From: a virus
Taxonomy: Duplodnaviria > Caudoviricetes
Direction: 5' to 3' (one strand)
Length of the DNA stretch: 58,751 nucleotides
Virus record (IMG/VR): IMGVR_UViG_3300046168_000001
Span: 1 to 58,751 of that record
Under the pieces are notes generated by a model that saw only the letters and a program-made list of their open reading frames with translations, was not told where the DNA came from and did no database searches. Made by a program: the position numbers and the translations under genes. Each line of letters starts with the position of its first letter. The stretch's first letter is position 1. Below are positions 30,428-58,751 of the stretch, one piece after another.

Positions 30428-31693
30428 ATGTCAATACCCTATCAACCAACTTTTAAGTTGCAACCTAAAACAGGTTTCCGGTATGCTTCACAACCTTTTG
30501 TACCACCAACACAACCAATTAATGCACCCCCTCCTCTTGGACTAGACGGGAGTGGTGCTGCTCCTCCACCTGTTATGGGAGCACAACAAGGTCCTGCTTA
30601 TGCTAATGACCCTTTTGGTGGTGGTGATAATCAGTTTCAAGCAAATTATAAACCTGCTGCTCAAAGCTTAGGGTACACACAGGGTACACAAAACCCAATG
30701 AATATGCTCCGAGGGGTTCCAGTTTTAGGGACAGCTATGAGTGCTATGGGTGCTTTTGATAATTTACCAGATCAAACCTATGGTACTTACGGAACTTATG
30801 ATAACTCTGGTAATGTGTTTGGTAGAGAGGGTCGTGCTTATAATCCAGTTACTGGTCGAGCCGCACAATCTTATGCAAAACCAAGTGACTGGTATGGAAG
30901 TTGGCTTGGAATTGGCACACCTGAAGGACTTGGTGGTTCTAGTAGTAGCTATGGTAAACTTAGAGCAGCAGGAGAAGGGCCAATTCAATCTGCATTAGGT
31001 AGTTATGAAAACTCTCTTTATAGACAGCAAGAGTTAAACCCTAATCTTAACACAGCACAAGCAAGAGCCGCAATGTTAAGAGGAACTGCAGACGCTAGTG
31101 GTGTTCCAACTATGCAAGGAGTAATAGAAGCTAATACTGCAATGTATGATCCAGCATATGCAGCAGCACAGGGTTTTGCAGATGACGATTTAGATCGTAT
31201 GGGTGGAACTGAAGTTACTAAAGAAATGTTAGGTTTTACAGATGCAAGACCTGATCCTGGCAAAATCAGTGGCAGGTTTGGAACTCAAGCTGGAGATGTA
31301 GCCCGTACTCAAATGGGTCTTGGAGTTATAAATCAATCAGGGCAAATAGAAACACCTACTGGAACTGTTGTTGCTATAAGTGATCCATATAATCCTGGAA
31401 AAAATATTTCATTGTTAGGAAGTACTCTTAACTCAACTGATGGTCGCTCAACTTTAAGCGCACAAAACGAATTAGCAAGAAACCAAGCATTAGATGCTCG
31501 TGCTAACCCAGAAGGTTCGGGTATGTCTGGCTTTAATGTTAGTGACGGAGATGGCGGTAGTTATCAAACAAGCTCTACAGGAGCTTCAAAAGGTATGGGC
31601 AGTCAAGCAGGACAAACTATTTACGGCATGGAAGATGAGTATGATGATCCTCCCCCTACTACTAATGATGATAATAATTCAGGAGGTAAATGA
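30428..31693 (+). CDS. Internal virion protein
   Basis: Gly/Pro-rich 421 aa; position in ejection module. Confidence 0.6.
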   Translation: MSIPYQPTFKLQPKTGFRYASQPFVPPTQPINAPPPLGLDGSGAAPPPVMGAQQGPAYANDPFGGGDNQFQANYKPAAQSLGYTQGTQNPMNMLRGVPVLGTAMSAMGAFDNLPDQTYGTYGTYDNSGNVFGREGRAYNPVTGRAAQSYAKPSDWYGSWLGIGTPEGLGGSSSSYGKLRAAGEGPIQSALGSYENSLYRQQELNPNLNTAQARAAMLRGTADASGVPTMQGVIEANTAMYDPAYAAAQGFADDDLDRMGGTEVTKEMLGFTDARPDPGKISGRFGTQAGDVARTQMGLGVINQSGQIETPTGTVVAISDPYNPGKNISLLGSTLNSTDGRSTLSAQNELARNQALDARANPEGSGMSGFNVSDGDGGSYQTSSTGASKGMGSQAGQTIYGMEDEYDDPPPTTNDDNNSGGK

Positions 31694-34600: not shown

Positions 34601-34740
34601 TTGCTGCAATGCGTAAAGAATGGTTTGCTCTTGATGATAAAGTCCGTGGTGAATATAACACCAAGGGTACTAATGAGGGTGAAACAGGCTTTATGGTATT
34701 TATGCAACAGCAGATTGCTGAAGATGTAAAACAATCTTAA
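31690..34740 (+). CDS. Internal virion protein with GH24 lysozyme domain
   Basis: EGFRNEAYLDSAGVPTIGYG, YNIG, PGLENRR..E; GTDTVPAWLTPGEFV; coiled coils. Confidence 0.85.
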   Translation: MMKLKSFTNKDRYGNMTSFEFYEDSNVPMMEGIPDHPGNPKGTDTVPAWLTPGEFVMNAEATRMFEPQIEQMNNVGRAVQAKQGGTIPEYSAHGGPVYMETGGFLDKLLGMFTSSSNEPTRTAKEVFDERIPALQNKTNPPTPTRPDPFISNKMYMDFLKDKEGFRNEAYLDSAGVPTIGYGFTEGVKMGDTISEEEANKRLLREMARTDQDYNNLVSADLNPNQQAAVKSLLYNIGGPQFEVSKARAALNSGDFETFKKEAAEFRMADGKVIPGLENRRRDELELFFKPYSSSKDDSDDYGDDTALSGPEILKQIVDRETGPVDPNAPDMPVDPGLLAAVEAQKAQVPPMDGVPPKGKPVGEGNKFDIDGDGFLSKEELLAARNQMIPSKDNVKGSASTPLNIMPSGNQIVIQGPDSLIARQEQILQDMIAANAPPSEIYAQQQKIDRINNIAPRQEAFSNVVKAQNKVEPINNQIEDLETQIQRLEAAGLYDRANSLRSEVANLKAEKPKLQAELDAANAAQDDLYRDATLSDGTVIPDVGKVTADQLEGDGTIPPPPLDLEGGVAQGMDDVPAINEPPKPEEKSSATSVTGMDNEYDEELDSTTQTIIDRIIADENFKDDGTTSGQTENSAIKTGENADPKDVSKAESFLSDIFGDLFDKDELKRMAIMYVGSRMMGGSHNGSMNFAAKQYVSRVDKKVATKKAEEKALAEEKRLDKKALAKERRQLVDDLIKADKRTPESISAFEKSGDARDLVTKPVLTKPPTSTGKTFTFYDKGGRGKVTALQMKDDNGNIFYVNSQGKQLNPFAFHQDPSLVPNTPEYEDRELKISKQMSDSLEDLIKRDTVVVNGKEVKPVGFATGSQGMEVARWMNRNKIPANYMGSILESAYAAAAAEQKATGNKVTNITSYLDKAFIDRIPGNEGIFTREDGERVDSGKVMNLIGQGVSILRSKPGQESKSDEQLQNDMLAAMRKEWFALDDKVRGEYNTKGTNEGETGFMVFMQQQIAEDVKQS

Positions 34741-34758
34741 CATAGTAAGGAGAATAGT

Positions 34759-37700
34759 ATGTCAATATTCGATAGGATTGCTGAGAAACCTTCTAATTTT
34801 ATTGAAGGAACTAACATGTCCCTTTTGGATGGAGATACTGCTGTAGATAACGACACTGGTGAAAAATACAGACTTGCCAGTGTCGATACTGCAGAGATTG
34901 ATCGCTATGTTGGTGGTGAGTTTCAGGCAGGTACTGCAGGTGGTTCAACATCAACAGCGGAAGTCTCTAAACTTATGAATGAGTTTGGATATAATAATGT
35001 AAAGCCTAGACTAGATGAGAATGGAGAGATCTTAAGAGACCCAAATGGTCGTATCATTGCTGACTTTGTTAATGATCAAGGTGAAACATTTTCTAGTCGC
35101 TTACTATCTGAGGGTGTTCTTAAACCTACAAAGTGGTCTTCTAATATTGAAGCAGATATCTATCAACTTGGTCAACTTAGAAGGGATCAAAAGAATCTTC
35201 AAGAGATGGATCTTGAAAATGCACCTACTGAATCTTCATGGGATCTTGCTCGTACAAACATTGAAGAAGCCATGCGTAAAGAGGGCTTCCGTCAGTATGG
35301 TTTAAAGAAAGTTGCCCACAATGAAGAAGAACTAGCTCGTGCTCAAGCGTCTGGTGTGTCTAGTTACTATGACATGAACAGGGTTGCAAGCAGAGCTAAG
35401 GATAGGACACTTCTTAATGAAGCCCTTAACCCTTATTCTGATTCATGGGAACAGGCTTGGATTGGTGTAGATGAAGCTATGGCTGGCCTTCAAAACATGT
35501 GGGGTGATCTTACAGATAACGAATATCATTCCCGTGTAGGCAAGATGGGTGTTGAACGTAATCGCAGAAGACTTGCAGAGTATGCCACTCGTATTGTTGA
35601 TTGGCGTGATGTGGACGATATCTCTAGTGGTATTGATTACGTTGTTAACAATGCTGCTATGTCTCTCCCATACATGATGATTGCTGCAGGATCTGCTTTA
35701 GCTGCTCCTCTTGTAGGAACCGCTGCAGGTGTTGCTGGTGCAGGTGCTGCTGTAACAGGTGCTGTAACGCTAGGGGCTAGTATGCTTGCACCCTCTGCAA
35801 TTTATGCAGGTCAAACTTATAATGAAATGGAAGGTGAAAAGAATATTGGTGTTGCTGTAACTTCTGGTATTCTACAAGGTACTCTTGATCGTATTGGTGT
35901 TGGTCTTATATTTAAAACTGGTACACCAACTAAAGAAGTTCTTAACAAAGCCTTAAAAGAATTAACAAAACCTGTAGCAAAAGGTGGTAAAGGATTAACT
36001 CTTGAAGCTGCACAAGATCTATTATCTAATGCTAGTAAAAAGACTATTGCTGATTTTACCAAAGATGCTGCTAATGCTGCTAGGTCACAACTTACAGGTA
36101 AGGCTATCTTTAAAGATTTAGCAACTCGTGGAATTATTGGTGGTGCTGGTGAGGCAGTCACTGAAGGACTTCAAGAAGCCACTGCATACACTGCAGCTAC
36201 TCTTGGTTCTGATAAGGTCTTTGACTATAATGAACTTACAGACAGGATGATTGATGGTGCTATTGCAGGTGGTGTTCTTGGTACATCTTTTTCAGCCCCA
36301 GGAGCCGCTGTTAACGCAGGGATCTGGGCAGACATTGCAGTACGTCAAGCACCAGCAGACGCTAAAAGGTTGTCTGATGCTGGTCGATACGCTGAAGAAG
36401 AACGTGCTAGAAGTTCTGATAATCGTATTATTTCTATTGAAGAAGGATTAGATAATATATATGATGGTACTCAACCAACTGAAACTGTAGATCGTGAAAC
36501 AGGAGAAATAACAGAGTATGATGGTAACTATTTTGAACCCTTAGACATACGAGAACAAGAACACAAGGGTAAAAAGGTAGACCGTAGCATTGGGCAATCA
36601 ATTGCTGCAGGATTAGCTAAACTTCCTAAGTTTTGGAGAGGCTCTGTTAATTACTTATTTCCTGATGAGGTTCTTGATAAGTCAAGGTCTGCTAGATTTC
36701 TAAAAGAAGCAATGGGTGGTGGTCTTCAAAAAGTATTTAGTGGTAATGGATTTGAAAACTTTAAGTTTAACCTAGTAGCCACATATAAAAACATGGTTCC
36801 AGAGCCATCAAGTTTTTACAGTATTTGGAATGATGGTAAAATGTCCAGTGCTACAAGAAGAAAAGAAATAAGTAATGAAATATATTCTATTCTTCGTAGT
36901 GCAATTAACAATGAAACAAAAACATTCGATCCTTCTGTAATTGAAAACATGACTTTACCACAACATAAAAAGCAAGCACTTATTCTTTTAGGTTCTCAAA
37001 TGAATGAGATGTCTGATACAATGTACACAGATCAGAATAAATATGTAAAACGTGAAGGTAAGGGAAAAGAGCTTGGTTATGTTGATAACTATCTTTTAAG
37101 ATTTAAATCTCTTGATAAGGTAGCTATTAAAAAGAATCGTGCAGGTTTTGAAGCAGCCCTACAACAAGAGGCTAACCTTAGTGTTCCTCAAGCTAAAGAA
37201 CTAACTGATCAGATTTTAGATAATCCTGAGGTAAATGATCTTAGTTTACTTGATGATAGTTTTTCTGTCACTAAAGGGGGTATTGTTCCTACAGCACATA
37301 GAGAAAGGACTCTTGGGTTGTCTGAAAGGGATGCTTTTAATGAGTTTATGGAGCAAGACATCTTTGCTAACATGTCTACTGCTGCTAAGTCTGCTGCACG
37401 TTTTGTAACACATCGTAAATACATTGGTAAGAATGGTGAAATGCTAGCAGCACAATTACAACAGATGGAAAATGAGGGTGTTCCTAGAGAAAAAGTAAAT
37501 GAAATAGCTATGGGCCTTAAAGATTTTCTAGATGCTGAATCAGGAAACTATAAACGTCCAACAAGCAAAGACGGTAAGCTAGCAGTTGGAATCCAAAAGA
37601 ATCTTATGTTTGTTACAACAATAGCAACTCTAGGTCTTGCCACAGTAGCTTCTATTGTAGAGCTTGCGTTAGCAGGTCGTGCTCTTACGGCAGAACAAAT

Positions 37701-38871
37701 ATATGGTCGTAAGGGGGCTACGTCTGGTGATACAAGCTTAGCGTCTTTTGGTAAAGAATTAGCAAAGGTTATTTCAGATGCTGTTAGGTTTGCAGGGAAT
37801 ACTGCTGTTCTTAAAGATCCAGGAGTAACCAGTGAGTCACGTGGTCAAGAACTGATACGTAGTCTTGGTTATTATGAATGGGATGTTGGTGCTGCTACAG
37901 TTACTGGTGTTACAGAAATGAACCCAGTGCATGAAAAGTACTATAAGTTGTTCTTTAAAATGACAGGTCTTACAGGTTGGACAAATATGACTCGTGCTAT
38001 TCGTGGGTCTATCGCTGCTGATTATATGTTTGATCACACAAAAACTATAGCTGAAGCTAGAGAAACGGGTTTGCCTAAAACCAATGAAGTTCAAGAAGCA
38101 GAAGAAGCTTTAAGAAACATTGGTGTAAACGTTGATGATGCTGTAGAAGTCTATCGTGCAGATCAAAGGGCAGGACCTAATGAACTTCTGTCTCCAGAGT
38201 TAGAGGCAAAACGTGAAGCTAATATGAGAACAGGTGCATTTAATTTTATTAATGACGCTGTTGCTTTACCTATGGTGGCTAACAGACCAATGATCTATCA
38301 AGACCCAAGGTTTGCTTTGTTCACACAGTTTCAAGGATTTATTGCTACATTTACAGCTAATCATATCCCTAAGTTATGGGGTGAGTATGTTAAACGTGGT
38401 ACTCCTTCAATGAAGTACAATGCTTTTGCTATTATGTGTACAATGATTATGCTTGGATTTGCATCTCAATATCTTAAAGACTTGATTAAGTTTGGAGATA
38501 GAGATGAAGATGAATTGAAAACACTTGGTAATCCATACCTTGATACAGGTGAGTATGTCCAACGTGGTATACGTGCGTCTGGATTGATGGGTGTTGGAGA
38601 ACGTGTCTTTGATCAGTTCTTTCCTTTGTATGAACAAAGGTCTGATAATGCATTAGAGTGGGCTTGGAATACAGTAAGTGGTGAAGCACCTGCTGCAGGA
38701 ACAGTTAAACGTGTTGCAAAGACATTAACTAATCTCGGCACTGGTGATTTTGGTGGTGCTGCTCAACAGGCAAGTAAACTAGTTCCGTTTATTGGTATCG
38801 TTGGTGGTGCTGAAAGACTTTCAAACTTATACGATTGGGATTATAAAGGGGAAGAGAATGGCAGTAATTAG
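34759..38871 (+). CDS. Large internal virion protein with N-terminal SNase/thermonuclease-like domain
   Basis: LLDGDT, YRLASVDTAE, DPNGRIIA, LLSEG; Gly/Ala TM-like region and GEAVTEGLQE motif typical of ejection proteins. Confidence 0.7.
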   Translation: MSIFDRIAEKPSNFIEGTNMSLLDGDTAVDNDTGEKYRLASVDTAEIDRYVGGEFQAGTAGGSTSTAEVSKLMNEFGYNNVKPRLDENGEILRDPNGRIIADFVNDQGETFSSRLLSEGVLKPTKWSSNIEADIYQLGQLRRDQKNLQEMDLENAPTESSWDLARTNIEEAMRKEGFRQYGLKKVAHNEEELARAQASGVSSYYDMNRVASRAKDRTLLNEALNPYSDSWEQAWIGVDEAMAGLQNMWGDLTDNEYHSRVGKMGVERNRRRLAEYATRIVDWRDVDDISSGIDYVVNNAAMSLPYMMIAAGSALAAPLVGTAAGVAGAGAAVTGAVTLGASMLAPSAIYAGQTYNEMEGEKNIGVAVTSGILQGTLDRIGVGLIFKTGTPTKEVLNKALKELTKPVAKGGKGLTLEAAQDLLSNASKKTIADFTKDAANAARSQLTGKAIFKDLATRGIIGGAGEAVTEGLQEATAYTAATLGSDKVFDYNELTDRMIDGAIAGGVLGTSFSAPGAAVNAGIWADIAVRQAPADAKRLSDAGRYAEEERARSSDNRIISIEEGLDNIYDGTQPTETVDRETGEITEYDGNYFEPLDIREQEHKGKKVDRSIGQSIAAGLAKLPKFWRGSVNYLFPDEVLDKSRSARFLKEAMGGGLQKVFSGNGFENFKFNLVATYKNMVPEPSSFYSIWNDGKMSSATRRKEISNEIYSILRSAINNETKTFDPSVIENMTLPQHKKQALILLGSQMNEMSDTMYTDQNKYVKREGKGKELGYVDNYLLRFKSLDKVAIKKNRAGFEAALQQEANLSVPQAKELTDQILDNPEVNDLSLLDDSFSVTKGGIVPTAHRERTLGLSERDAFNEFMEQDIFANMSTAAKSAARFVTHRKYIGKNGEMLAAQLQQMENEGVPREKVNEIAMGLKDFLDAESGNYKRPTSKDGKLAVGIQKNLMFVTTIATLGLATVASIVELALAGRALTAEQIYGRKGATSGDTSLASFGKELAKVISDAVRFAGNTAVLKDPGVTSESRGQELIRSLGYYEWDVGAATVTGVTEMNPVHEKYYKLFFKMTGLTGWTNMTRAIRGSIAADYMFDHTKTIAEARETGLPKTNEVQEAEEALRNIGVNVDDAVEVYRADQRAGPNELLSPELEAKREANMRTGAFNFINDAVALPMVANRPMIYQDPRFALFTQFQGFIATFTANHIPKLWGEYVKRGTPSMKYNAFAIMCTMIMLGFASQYLKDLIKFGDRDEDELKTLGNPYLDTGEYVQRGIRASGLMGVGERVFDQFFPLYEQRSDNALEWAWNTVSGEAPAAGTVKRVAKTLTNLGTGDFGGAAQQASKLVPFIGIVGGAERLSNLYDWDYKGEENGSN

Positions 38872-41800
38872 AGGTGCTCCAAGCACAACACAAAAAGCTG
38901 TAGAGAAACTACAAGAAAGTATGGTAACTGCAGCCCCTGAAGTAGATCCTAAGATGGTACAGCAAGAAGGGGAGGCTCCGGTCTCTCCTACTTCTGGAAG
39001 TATTTTTGATAGGATTGCTGCACAACCTGTGGCTGAGGCTACACAAGACAACGTAGAACAACAAGCAGAGCAAGTAGGTGAACAAGTACAAGAGGCTGTA
39101 GTAGAGGGATCTCCTGTAGCCCCTGAACTTGCTGCTATTGCAACTGCTGAGTTAGAGTCCAACCCTAAACGTCTTAATCAAAAACAACTAGAACGGGCTG
39201 AAGCAAAAAAGAATATTGTTAAACCGCTTAATGAACGTACTAAAGAAGATTCAGGTCAGTGGTTTTATAATGCTGTTATAGCAGAAGATGCTGCTTCGGA
39301 TGTAACATCTGGGCCTATGTCAGACGGTGGCCTTATAGCTCGTGCTAGGAATTTGTCTAATGGTGTTTATGGTGGTACAGCTTCTCAAGTTCAAGCTGAA
39401 ATCGAACAAAACGGTAAACCTCCAAATGGGCTGTTTGGTATTGCTGGATTAACAGAAGCAGCGACAAACAATGTTGCTCTTAATGTTTTAGAACGTCTTA
39501 ATGCTGTAGATAGAAATGCTGGTAAACCAACAAGAGATTTTCTTCAAACAATGTCTGTTGTTGCTGAAGATACTATTTCACAACTATCATTTAGTGAGCC
39601 GACATCTCTTGATATAAACCCTGGAGAAACTGCTATCAATGATGATGGTGAAGTTCAAAACGTAACAGAAGAAGAGATAGCCCAATCGACACCCTTTTCA
39701 AAAGCTAAAGCCAATCGTGATTTAGGAACACGAATAAGCAGAGAGTTCCAAAGGTTGCGTAATAAAGCAGAGGGTAGGCCAACAGATGAATACCAAGACA
39801 TAAGCGCAGATGAGGCTATTGCTCTTGGAGATATGGCAAAGGAGTTATATTGGGCAGCAAATAAAACTGTTGATGGTAAAAACTTTCTTGTAAGACAAAA
39901 AGCAAATGATGGTCAAGTGTATTTTACTTTAACCAAACATGGTTCTGATATGCTAAAGCAAGGGGCAGCTAGACGTAAACGCATGTTCCCTGGAAAACAA
40001 GTAAGGACACAAAAGAATTCAGGTGTAAAACTTACAGGTGAAGCAGAAAAAGCTACTCGTAAAGTGTCTTCTAGAGCAGGTCGTCTTACAGGAACCCAAG
40101 AGCTTAATCAAGCAATGGCTAATCTAAACAAGGTAGCTAACGTTGTTGATCCTCGTAGGCTTAAGATTCTATATCTTACAGCACTCCCTGTGTTACTTGG
40201 ACAAGCGGCCCCTGATACTCTTTATGCATCTCTAAATCATGTTGGTCAAGATAAATTAAATAAGTTTCTAGCTAAGGCTGCTGCTAAAACAGGAAGCCCA
40301 ACAGAACAAGAGACTGCAAACGCAACACAAGAATATAATGATTTAATAAATGATTTGGCTCAAGACTTGCGTGGTATTGCCTTAGAGCGTAAGGGGGCTA
40401 ATTACCTTACATATTATGTTCAAGCATTCAATACTCGCATTGCTCCGCAACAATCCACTCTTGATCCTACAACATCTAAAACTGCTAGGTTTGTAACTCG
40501 TAATGCTAAACCTTCATTGGTAGATTCAAAGACAGGAACGGGAAGACGTATTGAACGTAACCTTCGACAGATGTATGCTATGCATCTTGTAAAAGGGGCG
40601 GGGCCTAAGTTTCCAGCAGAAAGAGAAAGTATGCTAGAGATTGCTACACCACAACTAGTTAAGTGGGGCATATCCTTACGGGCTGCTCTTGATGGTGTAC
40701 CTGATTCTAAAATTGAAGAAATATCTCAAGCTATTGAAGATGGGATTTCAGTTAATGATCCAAATTTTCCACAGATCCCACAGCTACCTTCTGATTTAGA
40801 TCCAGAGTTGTTAGAAACGATTAAGAAACAAGGGGAAGATGGTCAAGCATATATTGATGGACTTATTGACTTTGCAAATTATTATGAAGTAAAGACTCGT
40901 GCTGCTTCGGATAAATTAGCAGGTAGGTCAGACGGTAACTATCAGTTTCCTTCTTTCTTTAATGCGTATATGGATGGTAAGACTAATGGTCTAGCATCTA
41001 ATGGTATGCAAATGGGATCTATGTCTGTTGCTCAAAGAACAGGTGTACTAAGAAGTCAAAACACTTCTGCTATTGATAATAATGAAGACATACGTGACGA
41101 GTTAGCAAACCTTTTATTAGCTAGTTTAGATGATGGATTTGATGGGCATACAGGTGAAGTTGGTGATTACTTGCATAATATTGCAACTGAAGTGTTTAGT
41201 ATTCGTGCATTGAATAAGGCCACCACCATGACGTTTGGTTATGGGAAAGAATTAAATTCTTTTAAACGTGACATTCGTGAATACTTAGATCTTATGGAAC
41301 AAGAAAAAGCAGCAGAAGGATCTAACTATAATGAGGTAGCATTAGCTGTTGAAGCCCTTACGTCTGATACTAAAGATGGAAGAGATGCCTTGGTTGAAAT
41401 ACTTCATGCTAAGTATGTACCATCTCTTGTTCAGGTTCTTGACAAGAGGGCCTTGCAGTCTCGTAATATTATGCGTGGGGCTGCTATGCTTCATGCTCTT
41501 TCTAATGAGTTGTTTACTATTGAATCTCCTACAGGGACTTCTCTTAATCTTGGTGGATCTGCTACTACAGGATACATTGAGGGAGATGCTTACAAGGTTT
41601 GGTCTGATGGTAAATATAGCTTAAGAAAGGTAGGGCGTTTTGGAGATGAACTAACTGCAGCTGCTCCAAGGCTTATGGATGACGTAAGTGTTCCTGGAGA
41701 AAGGGCGTATGGTGGATCTGTACCAGCCCCTGTTCAATCTCTAGATGCTGCTACGGTCATTCGTACAGCTAGTGGGAAGTCTTGGTCTAGGCTTGAAGCA

Positions 41801-42415
41801 GCTTCTGGTGGTGCTCCATATCTTCATACTATCTATGATGCCTTTAAGGTTGATGCTATGGGATATGATGTTGTATTTGAAGAAGTCAATCAAAACTGGT
41901 TAGATTTAAATATGCAGTGGTCATATCTTGAAAAGACTTCTGATGCATTAAACAATCTTAGATCTAAGTTTGCTGAAAGATACAGTGGACGAGACCCTAA
42001 TGATGTTCTTACAGCAAACGAATGGAGCATGGCTGGATACCTTTTAGAACAAACAAAAGTAGAAGGTAAGTCAATAAGCTCAAACCTTATGAATAAACTT
42101 TCTAAGGTGCTTGATCTACCCGTGGTTGATAAGAATAATAAACTTATTGAAAAACATCCAGAAGTAGAGGAAGCTACAAAGCGAATTGAAGACGCTATGA
42201 TTGCTGCTGGTTATAACCCTAAAAGCCCACCTGCACAACCTACTGTGCGACACATAAGGGCTTTTGTTCAGGCGTTTAGTAAAGAACTAAACATGCAAGG
42301 CAGACTTAATAAGATGATTGCAGAGACTAACAGAGATAAGGCTGTTCTCAAATCTGAAATAGAAAAGCAGATTTCAGACGGTAACTTTGGTGTGGCCCAA
42401 TATATGGATCACTAA
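38858..42415 (+). CDS. Second single-subunit (T7-superfamily) RNA polymerase, probably virion-encapsidated
   Basis: Motif A YMDGKTNG, motif B RALNKATTMTFGYG, VQSLDA, motif C HTIYDAF in correct order; last gene of the ejection module; start placed at MAVIRG. Confidence 0.85.
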   Translation: MAVIRGAPSTTQKAVEKLQESMVTAAPEVDPKMVQQEGEAPVSPTSGSIFDRIAAQPVAEATQDNVEQQAEQVGEQVQEAVVEGSPVAPELAAIATAELESNPKRLNQKQLERAEAKKNIVKPLNERTKEDSGQWFYNAVIAEDAASDVTSGPMSDGGLIARARNLSNGVYGGTASQVQAEIEQNGKPPNGLFGIAGLTEAATNNVALNVLERLNAVDRNAGKPTRDFLQTMSVVAEDTISQLSFSEPTSLDINPGETAINDDGEVQNVTEEEIAQSTPFSKAKANRDLGTRISREFQRLRNKAEGRPTDEYQDISADEAIALGDMAKELYWAANKTVDGKNFLVRQKANDGQVYFTLTKHGSDMLKQGAARRKRMFPGKQVRTQKNSGVKLTGEAEKATRKVSSRAGRLTGTQELNQAMANLNKVANVVDPRRLKILYLTALPVLLGQAAPDTLYASLNHVGQDKLNKFLAKAAAKTGSPTEQETANATQEYNDLINDLAQDLRGIALERKGANYLTYYVQAFNTRIAPQQSTLDPTTSKTARFVTRNAKPSLVDSKTGTGRRIERNLRQMYAMHLVKGAGPKFPAERESMLEIATPQLVKWGISLRAALDGVPDSKIEEISQAIEDGISVNDPNFPQIPQLPSDLDPELLETIKKQGEDGQAYIDGLIDFANYYEVKTRAASDKLAGRSDGNYQFPSFFNAYMDGKTNGLASNGMQMGSMSVAQRTGVLRSQNTSAIDNNEDIRDELANLLLASLDDGFDGHTGEVGDYLHNIATEVFSIRALNKATTMTFGYGKELNSFKRDIREYLDLMEQEKAAEGSNYNEVALAVEALTSDTKDGRDALVEILHAKYVPSLVQVLDKRALQSRNIMRGAAMLHALSNELFTIESPTGTSLNLGGSATTGYIEGDAYKVWSDGKYSLRKVGRFGDELTAAAPRLMDDVSVPGERAYGGSVPAPVQSLDAATVIRTASGKSWSRLEAASGGAPYLHTIYDAFKVDAMGYDVVFEEVNQNWLDLNMQWSYLEKTSDALNNLRSKFAERYSGRDPNDVLTANEWSMAGYLLEQTKVEGKSISSNLMNKLSKVLDLPVVDKNNKLIEKHPEVEEATKRIEDAMIAAGYNPKSPPAQPTVRHIRAFVQAFSKELNMQGRLNKMIAETNRDKAVLKSEIEKQISDGNFGVAQYMDH

Positions 42416-42729: not shown

Positions 42730-45048
42730 TTAGGCAAAGAAGTAATCAGATTCATAGATCTGTGTTACGTCTAGGTTGCCTAGCTCTGGTTGCTCTACGT
42801 CAAGGTTAGTAGCATCAGTAATGATGTTTTGTTGTATCAAGTCGTAGTAATTTTCTTTATCATACATTTCGATAAAGCTCTGTTTAGTCCTTGCTAATAG
42901 TGCTTCGACATCACATGCATGAGTGCTAAAGGAATCATGGACTGCTCCGAAATCACCGTTCCATTCCTCAATAACCAATGCCATATGACTGGCATCCTGA
43001 CTGTGAATGTAGTTAGGACTGACACCACACATAAATCCGCGAATGTCTGGGGTCTTCGTAGGTACTCTTGCCACATGGTTCACTCCTTTGTGTCCTTTAG
43101 ACTGAGACTTATAGCCACTTATAGTACCTCTACATTTTCGTGTAGCTGTAGTATAGTTCTGATAGATTACCTTAAACCCTGATGGTGTTACCCATGAGAG
43201 GTCGCTTCTACCGTTGCCATGTATCAGTTTACTTTTGTACGATCTAAGAAGTACTGTGAGTGTGTTGAGGTGTTCAATCTCTTCATCAGTTTTATCTTTC
43301 TTTGTGTACAATTCTTTCTGATCCTTGACCAGTTGTTTGTATTCTGGCCCAGCAGGTTCATTTTGATTATTGTATTTTAAATATTCACCTATCTCATACT
43401 GTGCTAGTTTTTGCAAGTATGCCATAGTATGCAGGGGTCCTGGGCATACAAGGTTGATTGCTTTAATTAGTAGCTTAGCTAGTTTATCACAGTCATCTTG
43501 TGTTATCCCATACTCTATGTGAAAGTCCTCTGCTTTACAATCAAAGAACATATTCTCAGCAATCTTCTTTGCACCTGCTGAGTATGCTCTTGTCATACTA
43601 CCACGTTTAGATATAGCTTTTCTAATATGTTTCATTGGCATCTGATCAAGAATGTCTTTAAGTCTTTCATCAGTTGTCAAATGGTACAGCTGCTTAGCAG
43701 TCTGAACATAGAAGTCATGTTGTATATCTACTGGTATTAGCCCTACAAGCCTCCCTGTCTGGCTGTCTTTAGAAATAGCACCTAGATGCTGCCAACCATT
43801 GTTAGACCCGTCTATGGGCACTGGAAGGTGGCTAACGTGGATTCTATTATCTTTGACTGCTCTTTGGTAATCAAACCACTCAAAGCAACAGGCTAGGAAT
43901 GACACAGATTTCTCTGCTATATCTGCTACGATACCTCTCCTACCCATTTCGACAATAACTTCCATGTTATCGTTAGTCCACCTTACCCTGTCCTCAAGGG
44001 TAAACTTATCTACGCTTATAGACTCTAGCTTTTCTTCTTCTAGGTATCCTGCGTAGTCAGCCTCACACCAGTCAGGTATCTCATCTATGTTATAACTCTG
44101 GTTGAATGTATTGGCTGTGTGTACAGCTAACCAGAAGAGACCGTCCTCTGTCATAGGTTTACCTCTAGCAAAGGTCATCATACCTCTGGCTAGGTCAGAC
44201 CCTTGATAGTTTAGGAAGGACTCTGAGTAGTATAGCCTACCCCTATAGTCTGCTTGCATGAACTGATAGAAGACATCGTGATCATATAGCAGCTTAGCTT
44301 TAGTAGTAATGAAACCCCACTCTACTAGTTTGCTTCTTCGTTTCATTTCTTTAGCGTCATTATCATCTATTGGTGTTGATGACACAAATGAATCTTTGTT
44401 TTCTATAAGAGTATCATACACACGCTGGTTAATTCTCCATCCAGTGCGTTGTAGTTTGTTTACTGAAGTAACCCAGGGGGTTCCAATCATAGGTTCAAAC
44501 CTTGCGTTGTCCTCTTCAGTCCACTCTTTAATTACAGGTTCACCATCTGGCTGTATGATTTTTGATATTCTATCCGGTCTTTCTAACACAGTATGTGTCA
44601 AAGAAATCCTCATCATTGCCTCTGGTATGTCAGCAAGATCTATCCACTTAGCTGTAGCTGATACAATATAACTAGTATCCCTTGTCTTTGGGTAGTATAT
44701 ATCTATGTACCCACAGTTATAGAATGCCTCTATGAAGAGATCACCCAACCTCACATGCATGTTCCAGGGTAACCCAGGGGGTTCCCTTTTGATTACACGT
44801 GCTATGCGTTGACCTATTGCTGTAGATACAGCTGTCAACTGTGCAGTCCCTGCAGGACTATCTGAGGTATCGTAGGTGAATCTCATTTGTATTGTTTGGA
44901 AAGCCACATTTATTAGTCGTGGCATTTCCTCTTTGTATTCTTTATACAATCTCAGAAGTACACCACCTGAGTTTGCCTTAGGGTTATTCGGATTAACCCT
45001 TGAGACCTTATCAACTAGGTACTCTGAGATGTTGTCGAATGGATTCAT
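42730..45048 (-). CDS. T7-like DNA-directed RNA polymerase (772 aa)
   Basis: DYRGRLY, QGSDLARG, PIDGSNNGWQHL, RKAISKRGSMTRAYS, WVTPSGF, PNYIHSQDA, VHDSF. Confidence 0.96.
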   Translation of the reverse strand: MNPFDNISEYLVDKVSRVNPNNPKANSGGVLLRLYKEYKEEMPRLINVAFQTIQMRFTYDTSDSPAGTAQLTAVSTAIGQRIARVIKREPPGLPWNMHVRLGDLFIEAFYNCGYIDIYYPKTRDTSYIVSATAKWIDLADIPEAMMRISLTHTVLERPDRISKIIQPDGEPVIKEWTEEDNARFEPMIGTPWVTSVNKLQRTGWRINQRVYDTLIENKDSFVSSTPIDDNDAKEMKRRSKLVEWGFITTKAKLLYDHDVFYQFMQADYRGRLYYSESFLNYQGSDLARGMMTFARGKPMTEDGLFWLAVHTANTFNQSYNIDEIPDWCEADYAGYLEEEKLESISVDKFTLEDRVRWTNDNMEVIVEMGRRGIVADIAEKSVSFLACCFEWFDYQRAVKDNRIHVSHLPVPIDGSNNGWQHLGAISKDSQTGRLVGLIPVDIQHDFYVQTAKQLYHLTTDERLKDILDQMPMKHIRKAISKRGSMTRAYSAGAKKIAENMFFDCKAEDFHIEYGITQDDCDKLAKLLIKAINLVCPGPLHTMAYLQKLAQYEIGEYLKYNNQNEPAGPEYKQLVKDQKELYTKKDKTDEEIEHLNTLTVLLRSYKSKLIHGNGRSDLSWVTPSGFKVIYQNYTTATRKCRGTISGYKSQSKGHKGVNHVARVPTKTPDIRGFMCGVSPNYIHSQDASHMALVIEEWNGDFGAVHDSFSTHACDVEALLARTKQSFIEMYDKENYYDLIQQNIITDATNLDVEQPELGNLDVTQIYESDYFFA

Positions 45049-55979: not shown

Positions 55980-56114
55980 AAGTCTCCATGCATTTTGTCG
56001 GTTCGACTAAAATTATCCGAGAGTAGCCCAAGGTTTCCCAAGGCTATCTCTGATGTTTGTACAAGGCTCCAATAGAGCAGGGTGGGCTACTATTTAGCCC
56101 TGCGAACATAAAGT

Positions 56115-56127
56115 GTCCCGAAGGGAC
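56115..56127 (-). promoter_or_regulatory. GTCCC-GAA-GGGAC triloop hairpin; candidate virion-RNAP promoter
   Basis: 21-mer AAGTGTCCCGAAGGGACTCAA matches the DTR element with one compensatory pair. Confidence 0.6.
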
Positions 56128-56139
56128 TCAATAATAAAT

Positions 56140-56730
56140 ATACAAGCGCCTCTGGTGCTTCAAGGCTAACTAAGACCGAGCACACAGAGTCGCTATACGA
56201 AACTGGCGAGATGTGGTGTAACAGTGTGACGGGATATGTTCCAGTTTAGTATGTTACAAACGCTGTCAGTGCATATAATTCTGTACAGGCCAAGACAGAC
56301 TCACTCGGCACAGTTGAAGCTGTACCACTACCCTCGCAAGGCAGCATTGCAATTTGAAGATGCGTGATCTGTAATTAGACCACGACTAGCTGTTTTCACC
56401 GGAATTGGTGCATACGGGACGCTTCTCTCCCCGTCTTGACTATATGCAGCACTGAACATCCGAGTCTTACTCTGCGATGTGCCCCACCATACTTATAAGT
56501 GTACCGCGCTTTGGGTTCTTTTGATGTATACTACGCTCTCACCGAGCTTCCACGTTTTTTCATTCTGTTACCATGTGTCCTATTGCTAGGCTAGACGCTT
56601 TTCCAATATGCTAGTCGTAGTTTGCAACACAGTGGGTACAGGCTATTGTGCCTGAGTTTCAGAGATAAACTGCAGCGGTTCTGCAGCACGTAGTATATGA
56701 AGAAAGCAGTTTAGTGTCATGCTAAGGACA
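56140..56730 (-). ncRNA. Candidate large structured non-coding RNA (unidentified)
   Basis: ORF-free; four nested long-range helices, two with minus-strand G-U pairs; GNRA-capped hairpin; crossing 7+7 bp helices. Confidence 0.55.
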
Positions 56731-56735
56731 TAGAA

Positions 56736-57248
56736 TTAGAACAGATCGCTAGGTGACCCTTGAACTTCTGCAGTTGGCTCAATAGAACCTACAGCTTCAA
56801 AGTCTACACCACCAGTTGGTGCATAGACTACAAGGTCTGTGATCTGAATAGCTGTGAGTGAGCTTGCAACGCCCTTACGACCAGCAGTGTCATATGGGTA
56901 TTGAAACACAATCACGTTAGCTTTGGAACCATTACCGATTGTGGTAACAGACTCCATAGGTGTGAGATCAGAGTTGACCACACGTACCTTGCCGTTAGTA
57001 TCACCATTTGCCTTGTGAGCTTTACGCTTAAGACTAGCAGTGAACATACCAGCAGCATCTTTGACCAATGCTCCATCTTTCCTACGGAACATGACATAGT
57101 TCTCTTCAAGCTCTTGGACTTTAGTTTCATCAGCAGTAGCAATTTGTAGCTCATACTGTTCAGTACCAAAAGGATTGACAGGCTTGTCAAGTTTAGGATA
57201 GTTGATAGTTACGTCATTGATCTTGAAATTACGTACTTCTGTTAGCAT
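56736..57248 (-). CDS. ssb: Single-stranded DNA-binding protein (T7 gp2.5/Enc34-like)
   Basis: YPKLDKP, IGNGSKANV, GVASSLTAIQITDLV, C-terminal acidic tail ending in Phe (SDLF). Confidence 0.8.
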   Translation of the reverse strand: MLTEVRNFKINDVTINYPKLDKPVNPFGTEQYELQIATADETKVQELEENYVMFRRKDGALVKDAAGMFTASLKRKAHKANGDTNGKVRVVNSDLTPMESVTTIGNGSKANVIVFQYPYDTAGRKGVASSLTAIQITDLVVYAPTGGVDFEAVGSIEPTAEVQGSPSDLF

Positions 57249-57515
57249 GGGATATTACCTTCCTAGCAAGTTACACAATATTGTGTTGATGATCAGATAT
57301 TGTAACGTGCACCCCTCCGCAAGCAATCTTATTTCTGGCTTTCACAGATTCATCAAGGGTAGTCTACATTTTTAAGTACACACCTGTTTACCCACATGAG
57401 GTTCTAATTAAAGCTGAATCATGTATGGTTACAGTATCTGAAGAGGTAAGATGTCAGTTCATTGTTCTGTACCATCTTACCAATTTGAGGACGCAGCTTG
57501 TCTGCGGCCTTCTTG

Positions 57516-57677
57516 TTATTTGAAAGACTCTATAAGAACTATGAAAGATATCACAGTTCCTATGGTCACAAGCTCTTTGTGTCTCAATACCCAAGGTCCA
57601 TTACCGATTGTAACGTACTGGCATAGACACAGCATGATATACATAAAGAGCGTCAATAGGGTGATAGCTGTAATCAT
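57516..57677 (-). CDS. Small membrane protein (53 aa)
   Basis: Manual translation MITAITLLTLFMYIMLCLC...ISFIVLIESFK. Confidence 0.5.
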   Translation of the reverse strand: MITAITLLTLFMYIMLCLCQYVTIGNGPWVLRHKELVTIGTVISFIVLIESFK

Positions 57678-57838
57678 TTGCTGAAGTCCACAAGTGTCAA
57701 TGCATAAGTAACGACACCAGTTACAGTCATAATACCACAGATGGCAATTATGAATACGTGTGTGTCAGACACAGCAGCAAGGAATGACATAACAAACCCT
57801 ACAAGAGTAAGTATTAAACCGACAATAGTATTATCCAT
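57674..57838 (-). CDS. Small two-TM membrane protein (54 aa)
   Basis: AGGAG RBS; MDNTIVGLILTLVGFVMSFLAA... Confidence 0.6.
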   Translation of the reverse strand: MDNTIVGLILTLVGFVMSFLAAVSDTHVFIIAICGIMTVTGVVTYALTLVDFSK

Positions 57839-57839
57839 T

Positions 57840-57956
57840 TTAGTCTCCTAACCATTCGTTGAGTGCATGGATCAAAGGTGACAGGCACATGAATAAGAGA
57901 CCTGCCAGTGACGTTGCGAGACATACGGCAACAATAGCGAACACAATATCATACAT
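57840..57956 (-). CDS. Small membrane peptide (38 aa)
   Basis: MYDIVFAIVAVCLATSLAGLLFMCLSPLIHALNEWLGD. Confidence 0.55.
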   Translation of the reverse strand: MYDIVFAIVAVCLATSLAGLLFMCLSPLIHALNEWLGD

Positions 57957-58164
57957 TGTATTGACCTTTCCAGAATACAGTGATTACAACAGTAACCTCT
58001 GAGTTAGTGACAACATACATACCAGTAGAGTTGTCAATGAATGTGAACTTGTTGGGGTCAGTACGGTTGACCATCTTGACACCGTTGTTGGTAGTGTTGA
58101 TGATATCCTGTACTGTGCCACCACGCTCTGATAAGCGAGCTTTAGCATGTTTAGTGATATGCAT
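57949..58164 (-). CDS. DUF4258-like small protein
   Basis: ITKHAKARL.ERG...DI...G...VVITVF; AAAGGA RBS before ATG 58164. Confidence 0.65.
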   Translation of the reverse strand: MHITKHAKARLSERGGTVQDIINTTNNGVKMVNRTDPNKFTFIDNSTGMYVVTNSEVTVVITVFWKGQYNV

Positions 58165-58215
58165 GACAGATCCTTTCTGAGATCTTTGAGTGATGATGAG
58201 TATCCCTAAGGACAC

Positions 58216-58287
58216 TCAACGCTCTTTAGCAGCTAGAGCTTCTTTATGGTTGAAGTAAACGACTCCATTGACAACATAGTATGTCAT
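58216..58287 (-). CDS. First early micropeptide (23 aa)
   Basis: AGGAG RBS; MTYYVVNGVVYFNHKEALAAKER. Confidence 0.5.
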   Translation of the reverse strand: MTYYVVNGVVYFNHKEALAAKER

Positions 58288-58443
58288 GTGAGACTCCTGT
58301 GTTAGGACAAGAGGATTCTTATCCATTGTGAAGACAAACCGAGGTACGAGTGTTTGGCTCTTATAGTACTCTATGGTTACTTTAAGTACTCTATGTATCT
58401 ATAGATACTTATATGTATATAGAGTTACATTCCAAAGAGGTTT

Positions 58444-58459
58444 CTATAAGGGGTATATA
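58444..58459 (-). promoter_or_regulatory. Phage RNAP promoter copy pointing into early genes
   Basis: Reverse complement is exact TATATACCCCTTATAG. Confidence 0.75.
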
Positions 58460-58471
58460 CAATTGAACATC

Positions 58472-58751
58472 GTCCCCAAGGTTCCTCATAGTCCTCTAAC
58501 AGTACTCCTGATCGGGTAATAGTCTTAGTAAAGGGTTCTATATACCCCTTATAGATACCATTAGTAGCTCTATAAGGCTCACTGACAGCCCTTAAAGGTA
58601 CAAAGAGTAGGTATAGTACCTAAAAAGCCTAGCGGCGACTGAGCGAAGAGAGAAAGACACTATAAGTATCCCGAAGGGATTCAAAGACATGATTGAATGA
58701 TTAAGAGTACCCTGAGTGATTGAGGGGGTACGAAAGTAATCAGGGTACTCA
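58472..58751. repeat. Right direct terminal repeat (280 bp)
   Basis: Identical to 1-280. Confidence 0.97.
58668..58680 (-). promoter_or_regulatory. ATCCC-GAA-GGGAT hairpin in right DTR; candidate first virion-RNAP promoter
   Basis: C-GAA-G triloop on the + (template) strand upstream of all early minus-strand genes. Confidence 0.6.

What the first reader, a model, noticed from the sequence alone, without database searches (positions are those of the whole stretch)
56111..58684. Covarying C-GAA-G DNA triloop hairpins: likely promoters for the virion RNAP
Seen: AAGTATCCCGAAGGGATTCAA (193-213 and 58664-58684, in the DTR) and AAGTGTCCCGAAGGGACTCAA (56111-56131) differ only at two positions, which swap an A-T stem pair for G-C. 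The stem closes a 3-nt loop and does not fit a UUCG RNA tetraloop register on the other strand. Known: d(C-GAA-G) triloop hairpins are exceptionally stable, and N4 vRNAP recognises such a hairpin on the template strand. Inference: with + as template, both sites fire leftward into the minus-strand early genes. A degenerate relative may lie at 58198-58217 (GAGTATCC-CTAA-GGACACTC).
Basis: partly seen in the sequence, partly recalled or inferred. Interest (0 to 1): 0.85.

Follow-up and report, generated by a model that had tools for sequence, protein, structure and literature searches.

The report
Hairpin promoters for a compact virion polymerase
A marine phage carries tiny, strand-specific DNA hairpins at the head of its early genes that are most likely start signals for a small RNA polymerase it appears to bring along in its particle, a stripped-down version of the unusual strategy known from coliphage N4.

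Summary
The 21-mer occurs at 193-213, 56111-56131 and 58664-58684, with 0 matches expected by chance. The copies differ only by one compensatory stem pair.

The window is a complete 58.5-kb phage genome with a 280-bp terminal repeat. The 1185-aa late-operon protein folds as a T7/mitochondrial/N4-type single-subunit RNA polymerase. A separate 772-aa T7-like polymerase has its own 16-bp promoters.

In 51 non-redundant related loci, perfect C-GNA-G hairpins number 37 on the template strand of the early genes and 3 on the other strand. Each lineage has its own covarying stems. The hairpins lie in intergenic DNA, twice just after canonical terminators. A template pyrimidine sits 14 nt from the loop centre.

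Best reading (about 0.6): N4-style template-strand hairpin promoters read by a compact virion polymerase, firing leftward. Transcript starts and virion packaging were not shown; the RNA contigs were uninformative.

The "degenerate relative" at 58198-58217 is a different element.

This scan noted similar hairpins in crAss-like and other phages, but none in relatives of this genome.

The parts
58664..58684 (+). Hairpin element P1 (AAGT-ATCCC-GAA-GGGAT-TCAA) in the right terminal repeat, 68-88 nt from the right genome end. The + strand is the proposed template strand; transcription would run leftward.
   Evidence: Flank-defined homologous sites in IMG/VR are fully paired in 10 of 10, one with the compensatory stem ATTCC/GGAAT.
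193..213 (+). The same element in the left copy of the terminal repeat. On a linear molecule it would fire off the left end; on a concatemer it is the same site as P1.
56111..56131 (+). Hairpin element P2 (AAGT-GTCCC-GAA-GGGAC-TCAA), between the ORF-free stretch 56140-56735 and the next minus-strand genes.
   Evidence: Flank-defined homologous sites in metagenome contigs are fully paired in 15 of 15 (14 GAA, 1 GTA loop). Alignment A3.
56107..56107 (-). Inferred transcription start of P2 (template C, RNA G, 14 nt from the loop centre at 56121).
   Evidence: Inference only. Template C at this offset in 15 of 15 P2 homologues. A pyrimidine at this offset in 26 of 35 unique elements across lineages. 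LUZ7 early starts lie 13-14 nt from the hairpin centre (PMC9163698, passages).
58660..58660 (-). Inferred transcription start of P1 (template C, 14 nt from the loop centre at 58674).
   Evidence: Inference only. Template C at this offset in 10 of 10 P1 homologues.
38858..42415 (+). 1185-aa single-subunit RNA polymerase and last gene of the late (+) operon; candidate virion RNA polymerase.
   Evidence: No Pfam family. Weak phrog_414 hit, E 9.5e-4. Invariant DGKTNG, R..LNK.TTMTFGYG and YDAF blocks in 25 homologues. AF2 model pLDDT 77. Foldseek E 1e-13 to 1e-12 to mitochondrial, T7 and N4 mini-vRNAP structures. VIA Z 25.2 (T7), 24.0 (yeast mitochondrial), 22.4 (N4 mini-vRNAP).
31690..38871 (+). 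Two large virion/ejection-type proteins directly upstream of the polymerase gene: 1016 aa with a lysozyme domain, and 1370 aa.
   Evidence: PF00959 E 1.5e-32. phrog_6958 and phrog_30152 'virion structural protein'.
42730..45048 (-). 772-aa T7-like RNA polymerase, last large gene of the minus-strand early/replication block.
   Evidence: PF00940 E 1.7e-56. phrog_414 E 3.4e-101. 38% identical to the Roseobacter phage CRP-7 RNAP.
58444..58459 (-). 16-bp T7-type double-strand promoter TATATACCCCTTATAG, pointing into the early genes between P1 and the first early ORF. Other copies: 68, 1991, 22613, 51206, 58539 (+); 51271 (-); and 50028 (-, 2 mismatches).
Evidence: 8 matches at <=2 mismatches against 0.03 expected.
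56075..56103 (-). Invariant stem-loop immediately downstream (leftward) of P2. It would form the 5' end of a P2 transcript, inside a structured leader (55985-56110).
   Evidence: Alignment A3. RNA fold of 55985-56135(-): -49.9 kcal/mol, z -3.7.
1..280 (.). Direct terminal repeat (equal to 58472-58751), which holds P1.

Best explanation
The two sites are N4-style early promoters. Each is a small DNA hairpin (5-bp stem, G-N-A triloop closed by C:G) that forms on the + strand, which is the template for the leftward early genes. It is recognised by the phage's compact 1185-aa single-subunit RNA polymerase. That enzyme is made late with the virion and ejection proteins, and is presumably packaged and ejected with the DNA. 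P1 lies 68-88 nt from the right genome end, inside the terminal repeat, so the first DNA to enter could be transcribed at once. P2 re-initiates 2.5 kb further on, after the SSB gene and a non-coding stretch. Transcription would start about 14 nt from the loop centre, at a template C (56107 and 58660). The early block ends with a conventional T7-like RNA polymerase, which then uses the separate 16-bp double-strand promoters for the early/middle and late operons. Shown here: the elements, their conservation and covariation, their strand bias in relatives, and the polymerase fold. Inferred: hairpin extrusion, start sites, packaging of the enzyme, and which polymerase reads which signal.
For: (1) Repetition and covariation. 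Three copies against 0 expected. P1 and P2 differ by one compensatory pair. A relative's P1 has a second compensatory change, ATTCC/GGAAT. Sites defined by flanks alone are fully paired in 15 of 15 (P2) and 10 of 10 (P1).
(2) Loop signature. G and A of the loop and the C:G closing pair never change, while the middle base does: GAA 30, GCA 4, GTA 2, GGA 1 of 37. This matches the requirement given for N4 promoter hairpins (5'G, 3'A, C:G closing pair; sheared G:A pair) in PMC4496689 (passages).
(3) Strand bias. In 51 non-redundant SSB-anchored loci (399 kb), perfect C-GNA-G hairpins with stem >=5 number 37 on the template strand of the early genes and 3 on the other strand. With families defined by flanks only, full pairing occurs in 9 of 9 (A), 10 of 23 (B) and 7 of 160 (C) matches on that strand, and in 0 on the other.
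(4) Lineage-specific stems with conserved flanks. L207 has five copies carrying five different compensating stem variants.
(5) Context. In L207 two hairpins follow canonical GC-stem/T6 terminators and precede an RBS and ATG by 40-50 nt. In the 36-kb record G003 the three family copies (8688, 16964, 22634) all lie on the template strand along the early block, one just upstream of the primase and T7-like RNAP genes. In G002 four tandem copies sit between terL and the early block.
(6) Start-like box. The template strand is purine-rich from 8 to 13 nt from the loop centre and has a pyrimidine at 14 nt in 26 of 35 unique elements, and a C in 25 of 25 lineage-A sites. LUZ7 early starts lie 13-14 nt from the hairpin centre (PMC9163698, passages).
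(7) The enzyme. RNAP fold and late-operon position beside virion proteins. 5 of 5 long related records that have SSB-anchored loci also encode it.
(8) P1 lies upstream of every known minus-strand promoter and gene, so no known minus-sense transcript reaches it. P2 has no nearby + strand promoter.
Against: There is no transcript-start evidence. The only RNA libraries holding the region are assembled contigs, and one record spans P2 (56059-56209), which fits read-through or DNA carry-over as well.
Packaging of the polymerase is inferred from gene position only. The positional counterpart in the nearest isolate, CRP-7 gp33, is not detectably homologous (hhalign probability 0.2%), and tblastn against 50,697 phage records found nothing.
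28 of 51 related loci show no perfect C-GNA-G hairpin of >=4 bp in the stretch fetched. At 4-bp stems there is no enrichment (4 versus 14).
The N4 contact base -8G is C here. The central loop base is a pyrimidine in 6 of 37 relatives' hairpins, whereas N4 needs a purine.
The sense strand after the hairpin is pyrimidine-rich, and the terminator scan flags P2 on the minus strand.
In L194 one hairpin lies about 20 nt downstream of a T7-promoter-like CCCTATAG, so it could act in RNA there.
Only two sites serve a 16-kb block, and the T7-like RNAP gene lies 13 kb beyond P2.
Folding energies are modest.
Confidence: 0.6

Rival explanations
1. The hairpins act in RNA on the minus-sense early transcripts (UNC triloop), as weak intrinsic terminators or attenuators, processing sites or stabilisers between early transcription units.
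For: The consensus scan flags P2 on the minus strand as terminator-like (GTCCCTTCGGGAC followed by ACTTTATGTT). The sense strand after the hairpins is pyrimidine-rich in all lineages. In L194 one copy lies just downstream of a T7-promoter-like sequence and would therefore be transcribed.
Against: P1 lies upstream of the first minus-strand promoter (58444-58459) and of all early genes, so no known minus-sense transcript contains it. P1 is not flagged as a terminator. The stems are only 5-8 bp, while the same loci hold canonical long GC stems with T6 tails, twice immediately upstream of a hairpin. Strict conservation of G..A plus C:G with a free middle base points to the complementary DNA strand; I know of no special UNC RNA triloop (recalled, not tested).
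Confidence: 0.12
2. They are hairpin promoters or regulatory sites for a different enzyme: the 772-aa T7-like polymerase (as proposed for LUZ7 RNAPII middle promoters) or a host or phage DNA-binding factor, and not for the 1185-aa enzyme.
For: LUZ7 middle promoters, attributed to its T7-like RNAPII, also show GC-rich hairpins (PMC9163698, passages). The 772-aa enzyme also matches the 'N4-like RNA polymerase' phrog_2166, E 4.9e-29. Nothing here links a particular polymerase to the hairpins directly.
Against: A separate 16-bp T7-type promoter with 8 copies heads the early, middle and late operons and is the natural partner of the T7-like enzyme. The hairpins occur only at the head of, or within, early blocks. 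The gene for the 772-aa enzyme lies downstream of them, so it cannot provide the first round of transcription.
Confidence: 0.12
3. They are DNA-level signals for replication or packaging: a priming or origin hairpin, a terminal-repeat processing signal or a terminase recognition signal.
For: P1 lies in the terminal repeat next to an 11-bp-arm inverted repeat that ends 1 nt from the genome end. P2 borders a 600-nt ORF-free stretch. G002 has four tandem copies between terL and the early genes.
Against: In L207 five copies precede five successive small early genes. In G003 copies are spread over 14 kb of the early block. The strict orientation relative to early-gene direction (37 versus 3) and the conserved start-like box are not expected of packaging or origin signals.
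Confidence: 0.08
4. The copy at 193-213 acts as an RNA hairpin in the 5' leader of the late (+) operon, downstream of the + strand promoter at 68-83.
For: The T7-type promoter at 68-83 points at terL (338), and the hairpin lies in that leader. A weak GP20-b-like match lies in the same leader: 58576-58631, equal to 105-160, E 0.055, below the gathering score.
Against: P2 has the same 21-mer but no + strand promoter within 4.9 kb (the nearest is 51206). Relatives place the class inside early blocks on the early-gene template strand.
Confidence: 0.05

Closest known systems
Early promoters P1-P3 of coliphage N4, read by the virion RNA polymerase gp50 (Schitoviridae)
   Same: Short template-strand DNA hairpin with a 3-nt loop whose 5'G and 3'A and C:G closing pair are required (PMC4496689, passages). 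A few copies sit at the genome end that carries the early genes, next to a terminal repeat. The partner is a T7-family single-subunit polymerase encoded among the virion genes, about the size of the 1106-aa N4 mini-vRNAP domain. A second, T7-like polymerase is encoded in the early region.
   Different: The polymerase is 1185 aa, not about 3500 aa, with no giant N- and C-terminal domains, and no sequence-level match to N4. The stem base at -8 is C, not G. The conserved template C lies 14 nt, not 11 nt, from the loop centre. The second polymerase is one 772-aa chain with T7-type double-strand promoters rather than a heterodimer. The genome is 58.5 kb with an SU10-type portal. In the nearest group studied, N4, the late genes depend on the host polymerase; here they carry phage T7-type promoters.
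Early promoters of Pseudomonas phage LUZ7 mapped by ONT-cappable-seq
   Same: Stem of >=4 bp, conserved 3-nt loop, preferred G start 13-14 nt from the hairpin centre, and tandem copies (PMC9163698, passages). The offset matches the conserved template C at 14 nt found here.
   Different: LUZ7 is a true N4-like phage with a 3398-aa vRNAP (PMC3715699, passages). In LUZ7 the starts were measured; here they are inferred.
d(GCGAAGC)/d(GCGNAGC) mini-hairpin DNA
   Same: The C-GNA-G core, with the middle base free (PMC13037366, abstract as shown in the listing). One lineage here uses C-GTAA-G, which fits the GNNA form named in that abstract.
   Different: That is a physical-chemistry motif, not a biological system. 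Its stability was not measured here, and ViennaRNA DNA parameters give only -2.7 to -3.8 kcal/mol.
GNA-triloop hairpin promoter candidates noted by this scan in crAss-like and 'two-barrel polymerase' phages
   Same: The same kind of strand-specific covarying triloop hairpin with a conserved box ahead of early genes (AI notes e1-5941615, e1-6158263, e1-5738920 and others; not checked by me).
   Different: Those phages carry a two-barrel (crAss/QDE-1-type) polymerase. Here the partner has the T7/N4 right-hand fold, the enzyme class for which hairpin promoters are experimentally established.
T7-group double-strand promoters
   Same: The genome also has this class (TATATACCCCTTATAG, 8 copies).
   Different: The hairpin elements share no sequence with it and are restricted to the head of the early genes.

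Membership tests
N4-type virion-RNAP hairpin promoter | Inverted repeat able to form a 5-7 bp stem with a 3-nt loop | tested here: met
   5-bp stem and 3-nt loop at both sites. Actual extrusion in supercoiled DNA was not tested.
N4-type virion-RNAP hairpin promoter | Loop 5'G and 3'A with a C:G closing pair on the template strand (PMC4496689) | tested here: met
   C-GAA-G on the + strand, which is template for the minus-strand early genes. The feature is invariant in 37 of 37 hairpins of that strand in relatives, but there it was a selection criterion. The unselected checks are 15 of 15 and 10 of 10 flank-defined sites.
N4-type virion-RNAP hairpin promoter | Purine at the loop centre (-11 A/G) | tested here: met
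   A in both window sites. In relatives, 31 of 37 are A or G and 6 of 37 are C or T. The requirement is therefore looser than in N4.
N4-type virion-RNAP hairpin promoter | G at -8 in the stem, contacted by the specificity loop | tested here: not met
   The position is C (stem [A/G]TCCC). Different stem specificity is expected for a different enzyme.
N4-type virion-RNAP hairpin promoter | Start at a template C 11 nt from the loop centre | tested here: inconclusive
   At 11 nt the template base is A (P2) or T (P1). A conserved C lies at 14 nt in 25 of 25 sites. No start sites were measured.
N4-type virion-RNAP hairpin promoter | A few copies in the first part of the genome to enter, upstream of early genes | tested here: inconclusive
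   P1 is 68-88 nt from the right end and P2 2.6 kb from it, both upstream of minus-strand early genes. Which end enters first cannot be told from sequence.
N4-type virion-RNAP hairpin promoter | Read by a virion-packaged T7-family RNA polymerase | tested here: inconclusive
   The T7/N4 fold is shown, as is the late-operon position beside virion proteins. Packaging and promoter use are not testable with these tools.
N4-type virion-RNAP hairpin promoter | Dependence on negative supercoiling (gyrase) and host SSB | not testable with these tools
   Needs biochemistry.
Schitoviridae (N4-like phages) | Giant vRNAP of about 2,800-3,800 aa (PMC10654107, passages) | tested here: not met
   1185 aa. The homologues listed are 788-1345 aa, but that search only considered lengths of 651-2074 aa.
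Schitoviridae (N4-like phages) | Heterodimeric T7-like RNAPII | tested here: not met
   A single 772-aa PF00940 protein.
Intrinsic (rho-independent) terminator | GC-rich stem followed directly by a U-run on the transcribed strand | tested here: inconclusive
   P2 passes a loose consensus scan on the minus strand and P1 does not. Canonical terminators in related loci look quite different and lie beside the hairpins.
T7-family single-subunit RNA polymerase (for 38858-42415) | Right-hand polymerase fold with motifs A, B and C | tested here: met
   Foldseek probability 1.00, E 7.6e-14 to 1e-11. VIA Z 25.2 with rmsd 5.0 over 539 aligned residues (T7), and Z 22.4 with rmsd 7.5 over 753 (N4 mini-vRNAP). 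Invariant DG..NG, R...K......YG and YDA blocks; naming these as motifs A, B and C is from my recall. Sequence searches failed: Pfam 0 families, PDB phmmer and profile searches 0 relevant hits.

The most novel reading that the evidence does not exclude
A widespread, unannotated family of marine podophages runs a minimal N4-type programme. A free-standing polymerase of about 1100-1200 aa, the size of N4's catalytic core alone, is delivered with a T7-like set of ejection proteins. It starts early transcription at C-GNA-G mini-hairpins on the template strand, about 14 nt from the loop centre. Stems and flanks have co-diverged with the enzyme into at least five mutually distinct promoter 'dialects'. 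This would give a natural set of compact, possibly orthogonal, single-strand-promoter polymerases. It would also show that hairpin-promoter recognition does not need the giant N4 protein.
Probability: 0.45. Interest if true: 0.72.

Novelty: new variant of a known kind. Interest (0 to 1): 0.62.

Why it matters
Hairpin promoters read by an injected polymerase have been shown experimentally only for N4-like phages with their 3500-aa enzyme. If this reading is right, the same logic exists in a much smaller and simpler form in an abundant group of marine phages. At least 263 homologues of the polymerase were found, none carrying a Pfam domain or a functional name. I found no paper that links this phage group to a virion polymerase. 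An 1185-aa enzyme with a 21-nt promoter is easy to test in vitro. The lineage-specific stems offer a natural experiment on how such enzymes read DNA shape and sequence. The reading also explains how these phages could start infection without host-type promoters. Finally, it gives a rule for annotating early transcription units in related metagenomic genomes.

Tried and rejected
RNA evidence. Four RNA-library runs (X15-X18) were laid on 55000-58751. All are assembled contigs of low depth, with no start or strand information. No contig covers 58556-58751, and one 151-nt record spans P2. Nothing can be concluded about starts, and an uncovered part is not evidence.

Sequence-level links of the polymerase to known structures failed: phmmer gave 0 hits and the 25-sequence profile gave only a spurious 0.13 hit. 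Only the fold search worked.

blastn of 55400-58751 and tblastn of the polymerase against 50,697 phage records found nothing.

CRP-7, the nearest isolate. A scan for perfect triloop hairpins gave no clear counterpart. An imperfect CCCGAAGGG core lies about 95 nt before the record end and pairs better on the sense strand. Its gp33 is not detectably homologous to the polymerase. CRP-7 therefore neither supports nor contradicts the reading.

One candidate (L105, loop GGA) was not followed up.

Rfam: no family reached its gathering score in 55400-58751.

The sigma-70-like promoter count equals the shuffle expectation (10 versus 8.7), so it does not settle whether the host polymerase reads the early genes.

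A covariation count on hairpins that were selected for pairing would be circular, so I replaced it with flank-only definitions.

I considered and rejected the 58198-58217 hairpin as a third promoter.

Supplementary files of the cited papers were not opened. LUZ7 and N4 promoter sequences given only in figures or supplements were not seen.

Full report
WHAT THE WINDOW IS. The window is a complete linear phage genome. Bases 1-280 are repeated exactly at 58472-58751, giving 58,471 unique bases plus a 280-bp direct terminal repeat. Genes on the + strand (338-42415) encode terminase, an SU10-type portal, the major head protein, a ribonucleotide reductase, tail proteins and three very large proteins. 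Genes on the minus strand run from about 58326 down to 42471. They encode small early proteins, a gp2.5-like SSB (56736-57248), DNA polymerase, exonuclease, primase-helicase and, last, a 772-aa T7-like RNA polymerase (PF00940, E 1.7e-56). The nearest isolate is Roseobacter phage CRP-7 (58.1 kb). Its RNA polymerase is 38% identical and its gene order is the same. The paper describing CRP-7 names only the T7-like polymerase (PMC6918029, passages).

THE OBSERVATION. The 21-mer is present exactly as described, with three matches against none in shuffles. Two of the three are the same site in the terminal repeat. The two independent sites differ only in the outermost stem pair (A-T versus G-C). No other fully paired C-GNA-G triloop exists in the 58.7 kb on either strand. 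Thermodynamic scores are unremarkable, so the case rests on comparison with relatives.

THE POLYMERASE. The 38858-42415 product has no Pfam family and no sequence match in the PDB, either alone or as a profile. It has only a borderline PHROG hit. It does have at least 263 homologues of about 1100-1300 aa in metagenomes. An alignment of 25 of these shows invariant DGKTNG, R..LNK.TTMTFGYG and YDAF blocks. The AlphaFold model (pLDDT 77) matches mitochondrial, T7 and N4 mini-vRNAP structures with Foldseek probability 1.00 (E 1e-13 to 1e-11). VIA Z is 25.2 for T7, 24.0 for yeast mitochondrial and 22.4 for N4 mini-vRNAP, and the N4 entries give the longest alignments at 753-770 residues. The protein is therefore a second single-subunit RNA polymerase. 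It is the last gene of the late operon, directly after a 1016-aa lysozyme-domain protein and a 1370-aa 'virion structural protein'. A polymerase made together with the particle proteins is most simply explained as cargo for the next infection. That is an inference; no proteomics exist.

TWO PROMOTER CLASSES. It has 8 copies at <=2 mismatches against 0.03 expected. The copies lie ahead of the late operons (68, 1991, 22613), of the early block (58444, minus strand) and inside it (51271). This is the natural partner of the 772-aa enzyme. The hairpins are a second, unrelated class, found only at the head of the early genes.

RELATIVES. Exact and fuzzy searches in IMG/VR show that close relatives keep both sites. 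When the sites are defined by their flanks only, P2 is fully paired in 15 of 15 metagenome contigs (14 GAA, 1 GTA loop). P1 is fully paired in 10 of 10 viral contigs, one of which has the doubly changed stem ATTCC/GGAAT.

Using the neighbouring SSB gene as an anchor, I fetched 80 loci, which reduce to 51 non-redundant loci covering 399 kb. Perfect C-GNA-G hairpins with stems of 5 or more pairs number 37 on the strand that is template for the early genes and 3 on the other strand. My rough expectation, about 4 per strand, agrees with the 3.

The hairpins fall into lineage-specific families:
- A: AAGT-RTCCC-GAA-GGGAY-TCAA (the window's lineage).
- B: AAAGAGR-CACAC-GNA-GTGTG-GCTC.
- C: ATGT-n9-AGAGNC-GAA-GNCTCT, with five copies and five different compensating stem variants in L207.
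- D: four tandem GTTGC-GAA-GCAAC.
- E: the window's own stem with a GTAA loop.

With the families defined by flanks alone, matches are either fully paired or at random level. Full pairing occurs only on the template-like strand. The loop G, the loop A and the closing C:G never vary, while the middle base does. This is what PMC4496689 (passages) describes for the N4 promoter hairpin with its sheared G:A pair.

Two results run against the pattern. 28 of 51 loci have no such hairpin in the stretch fetched, and 4-bp stems show no enrichment (4 versus 14).

CONTEXT. In L207 the five hairpins lie in five successive intergenic gaps of the early region. Two of them sit just downstream of textbook terminators (long GC stem, T6) and 40-50 nt upstream of an RBS and ATG. 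In the 36-kb record G003 the three family copies lie along the whole minus-strand block, one directly upstream of the primase and T7-like polymerase genes. In the 60-kb record G002 four tandem copies lie between terL and the early genes. All five long related records tested encode the compact polymerase.

On the template strand the 6 positions from 8 to 13 nt from the loop centre are purine-rich. Position 14 is a pyrimidine in 26 of 35 unique elements and a C in all 25 flank-defined lineage-A sites. In LUZ7 the measured early starts lie 13-14 nt from the hairpin centre and prefer G (PMC9163698, passages). I therefore place the likely starts at 56107 and 58660. A P2 transcript would begin with an invariant stem-loop and a strongly structured leader.

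MECHANISM PROPOSED. The right end enters first. The ejected polymerase finds P1, 68-88 nt from the end, as an extruded template-strand hairpin and transcribes leftward. P2 restarts transcription after the SSB gene and the non-coding stretch. Once the 772-aa enzyme is made, the 16-bp promoters take over.

Weak points:
- Nothing shows starts or packaging.
- Only two sites serve 16 kb in this genome.
- The N4 contact base -8G is C here.
- The pyrimidine-rich tract after the hairpin gives P2 a weak terminator-like look on the minus strand.

The RNA-level rival fails mainly on P1, which lies upstream of every known minus-strand promoter, and on the GNA signature. The packaging/origin rival fails on the multi-copy arrangements in relatives.

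THE 'DEGENERATE RELATIVE'. The hairpin at 58198-58217 has a CTAA loop and an A.C mismatch on the + strand. It forms 9 pairs with a G-T wobble on the minus strand, directly after the stop codon of the first small ORF. It looks like an RNA-level intergenic hairpin and not like a member of this class.

COMPARISON AND NOVELTY. The system works like N4 early transcription but is not a member of the N4-like phages. It has no giant polymerase, no heterodimeric RNAPII, and a different portal and genome size. A survey of 'hidden N4-like viruses' discarded all candidates under 2,500 aa (PMC10654107, passages). Searches for CRP-7 together with vRNAP, and three related term sets, found no paper that describes a virion polymerase or hairpin promoters in this group. 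This holds only for the library searched. This scan has noted similar hairpins in crAss-like and two-barrel-polymerase phages but has no notes on relatives of this genome. I rate it a new variant of a known kind, of good interest because it is small, abundant and directly testable.

Noticed in passing
window 58705-58750 (equal to 234-279): A perfect 11-bp-arm inverted repeat (GAGTACCCTGA ... TCAGGGTACTC, 24 nt between the arms) ends 1 nt before the right genome end, which is also the inner boundary of the terminal repeat. It may be a signal for terminal-repeat processing or packaging.
   Followed up: partly
window 56140-56735: About 600 nt without ORFs between the SSB gene and P2. The stretch is well conserved in relatives and is held by contigs of four RNA libraries (56227-56704). 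A hairpin followed by a T-rich tail on the minus strand lies just before P2. Another note of this scan covers this stretch (e1-6283914).
   Followed up: partly
window 58576-58631 (equal to 105-160), + strand: Weak match to Rfam GP20-b (23.4 bits against a gathering score of 36.2, E 0.055), in the leader between the + strand promoter at 68-83 and terL.
   Followed up: no
L002 27271-28106 (CRP-7 record 57271-58106): About 800 nt of G+T-rich sequence almost devoid of A on the + strand, at the end of the CRP-7 record, annotated as gp72 on the other strand. It may be an odd terminal region or an assembly artefact.
   Followed up: no
L001 327-355 and 1128-1150 (CRP-7): Two early-region hairpins with the same loop, TGTAATG, and different compensating stems (CACACC/GGTGTG and CCTCC/GGAGG). 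Each lies ahead of a gene with the box TATATCTCG..AAAGGA. They may be CRP-7's own early signals.
   Followed up: no
L207 about 2565, 2745, 3640 and 4920: A second repeated element, CGACCTGAG(C/T)A(T/C)GTCGTTAAACTGC, lies 45-60 nt upstream of several early genes, downstream of the hairpins. Its function is unknown.
   Followed up: no
L194 4395-4405 and 9766-9780; L174 about 7756: CCCTATAG / CCCTTATAG sequences resembling the window's T7-type promoter end lie next to hairpin elements in other lineages. This suggests paired promoters of both classes.
   Followed up: no
window 22662-24407: A ribonucleotide reductase large-subunit gene (phrog_84, E 1.7e-132) sits inside the late + strand block, right after the promoter at 22613.
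   Followed up: no
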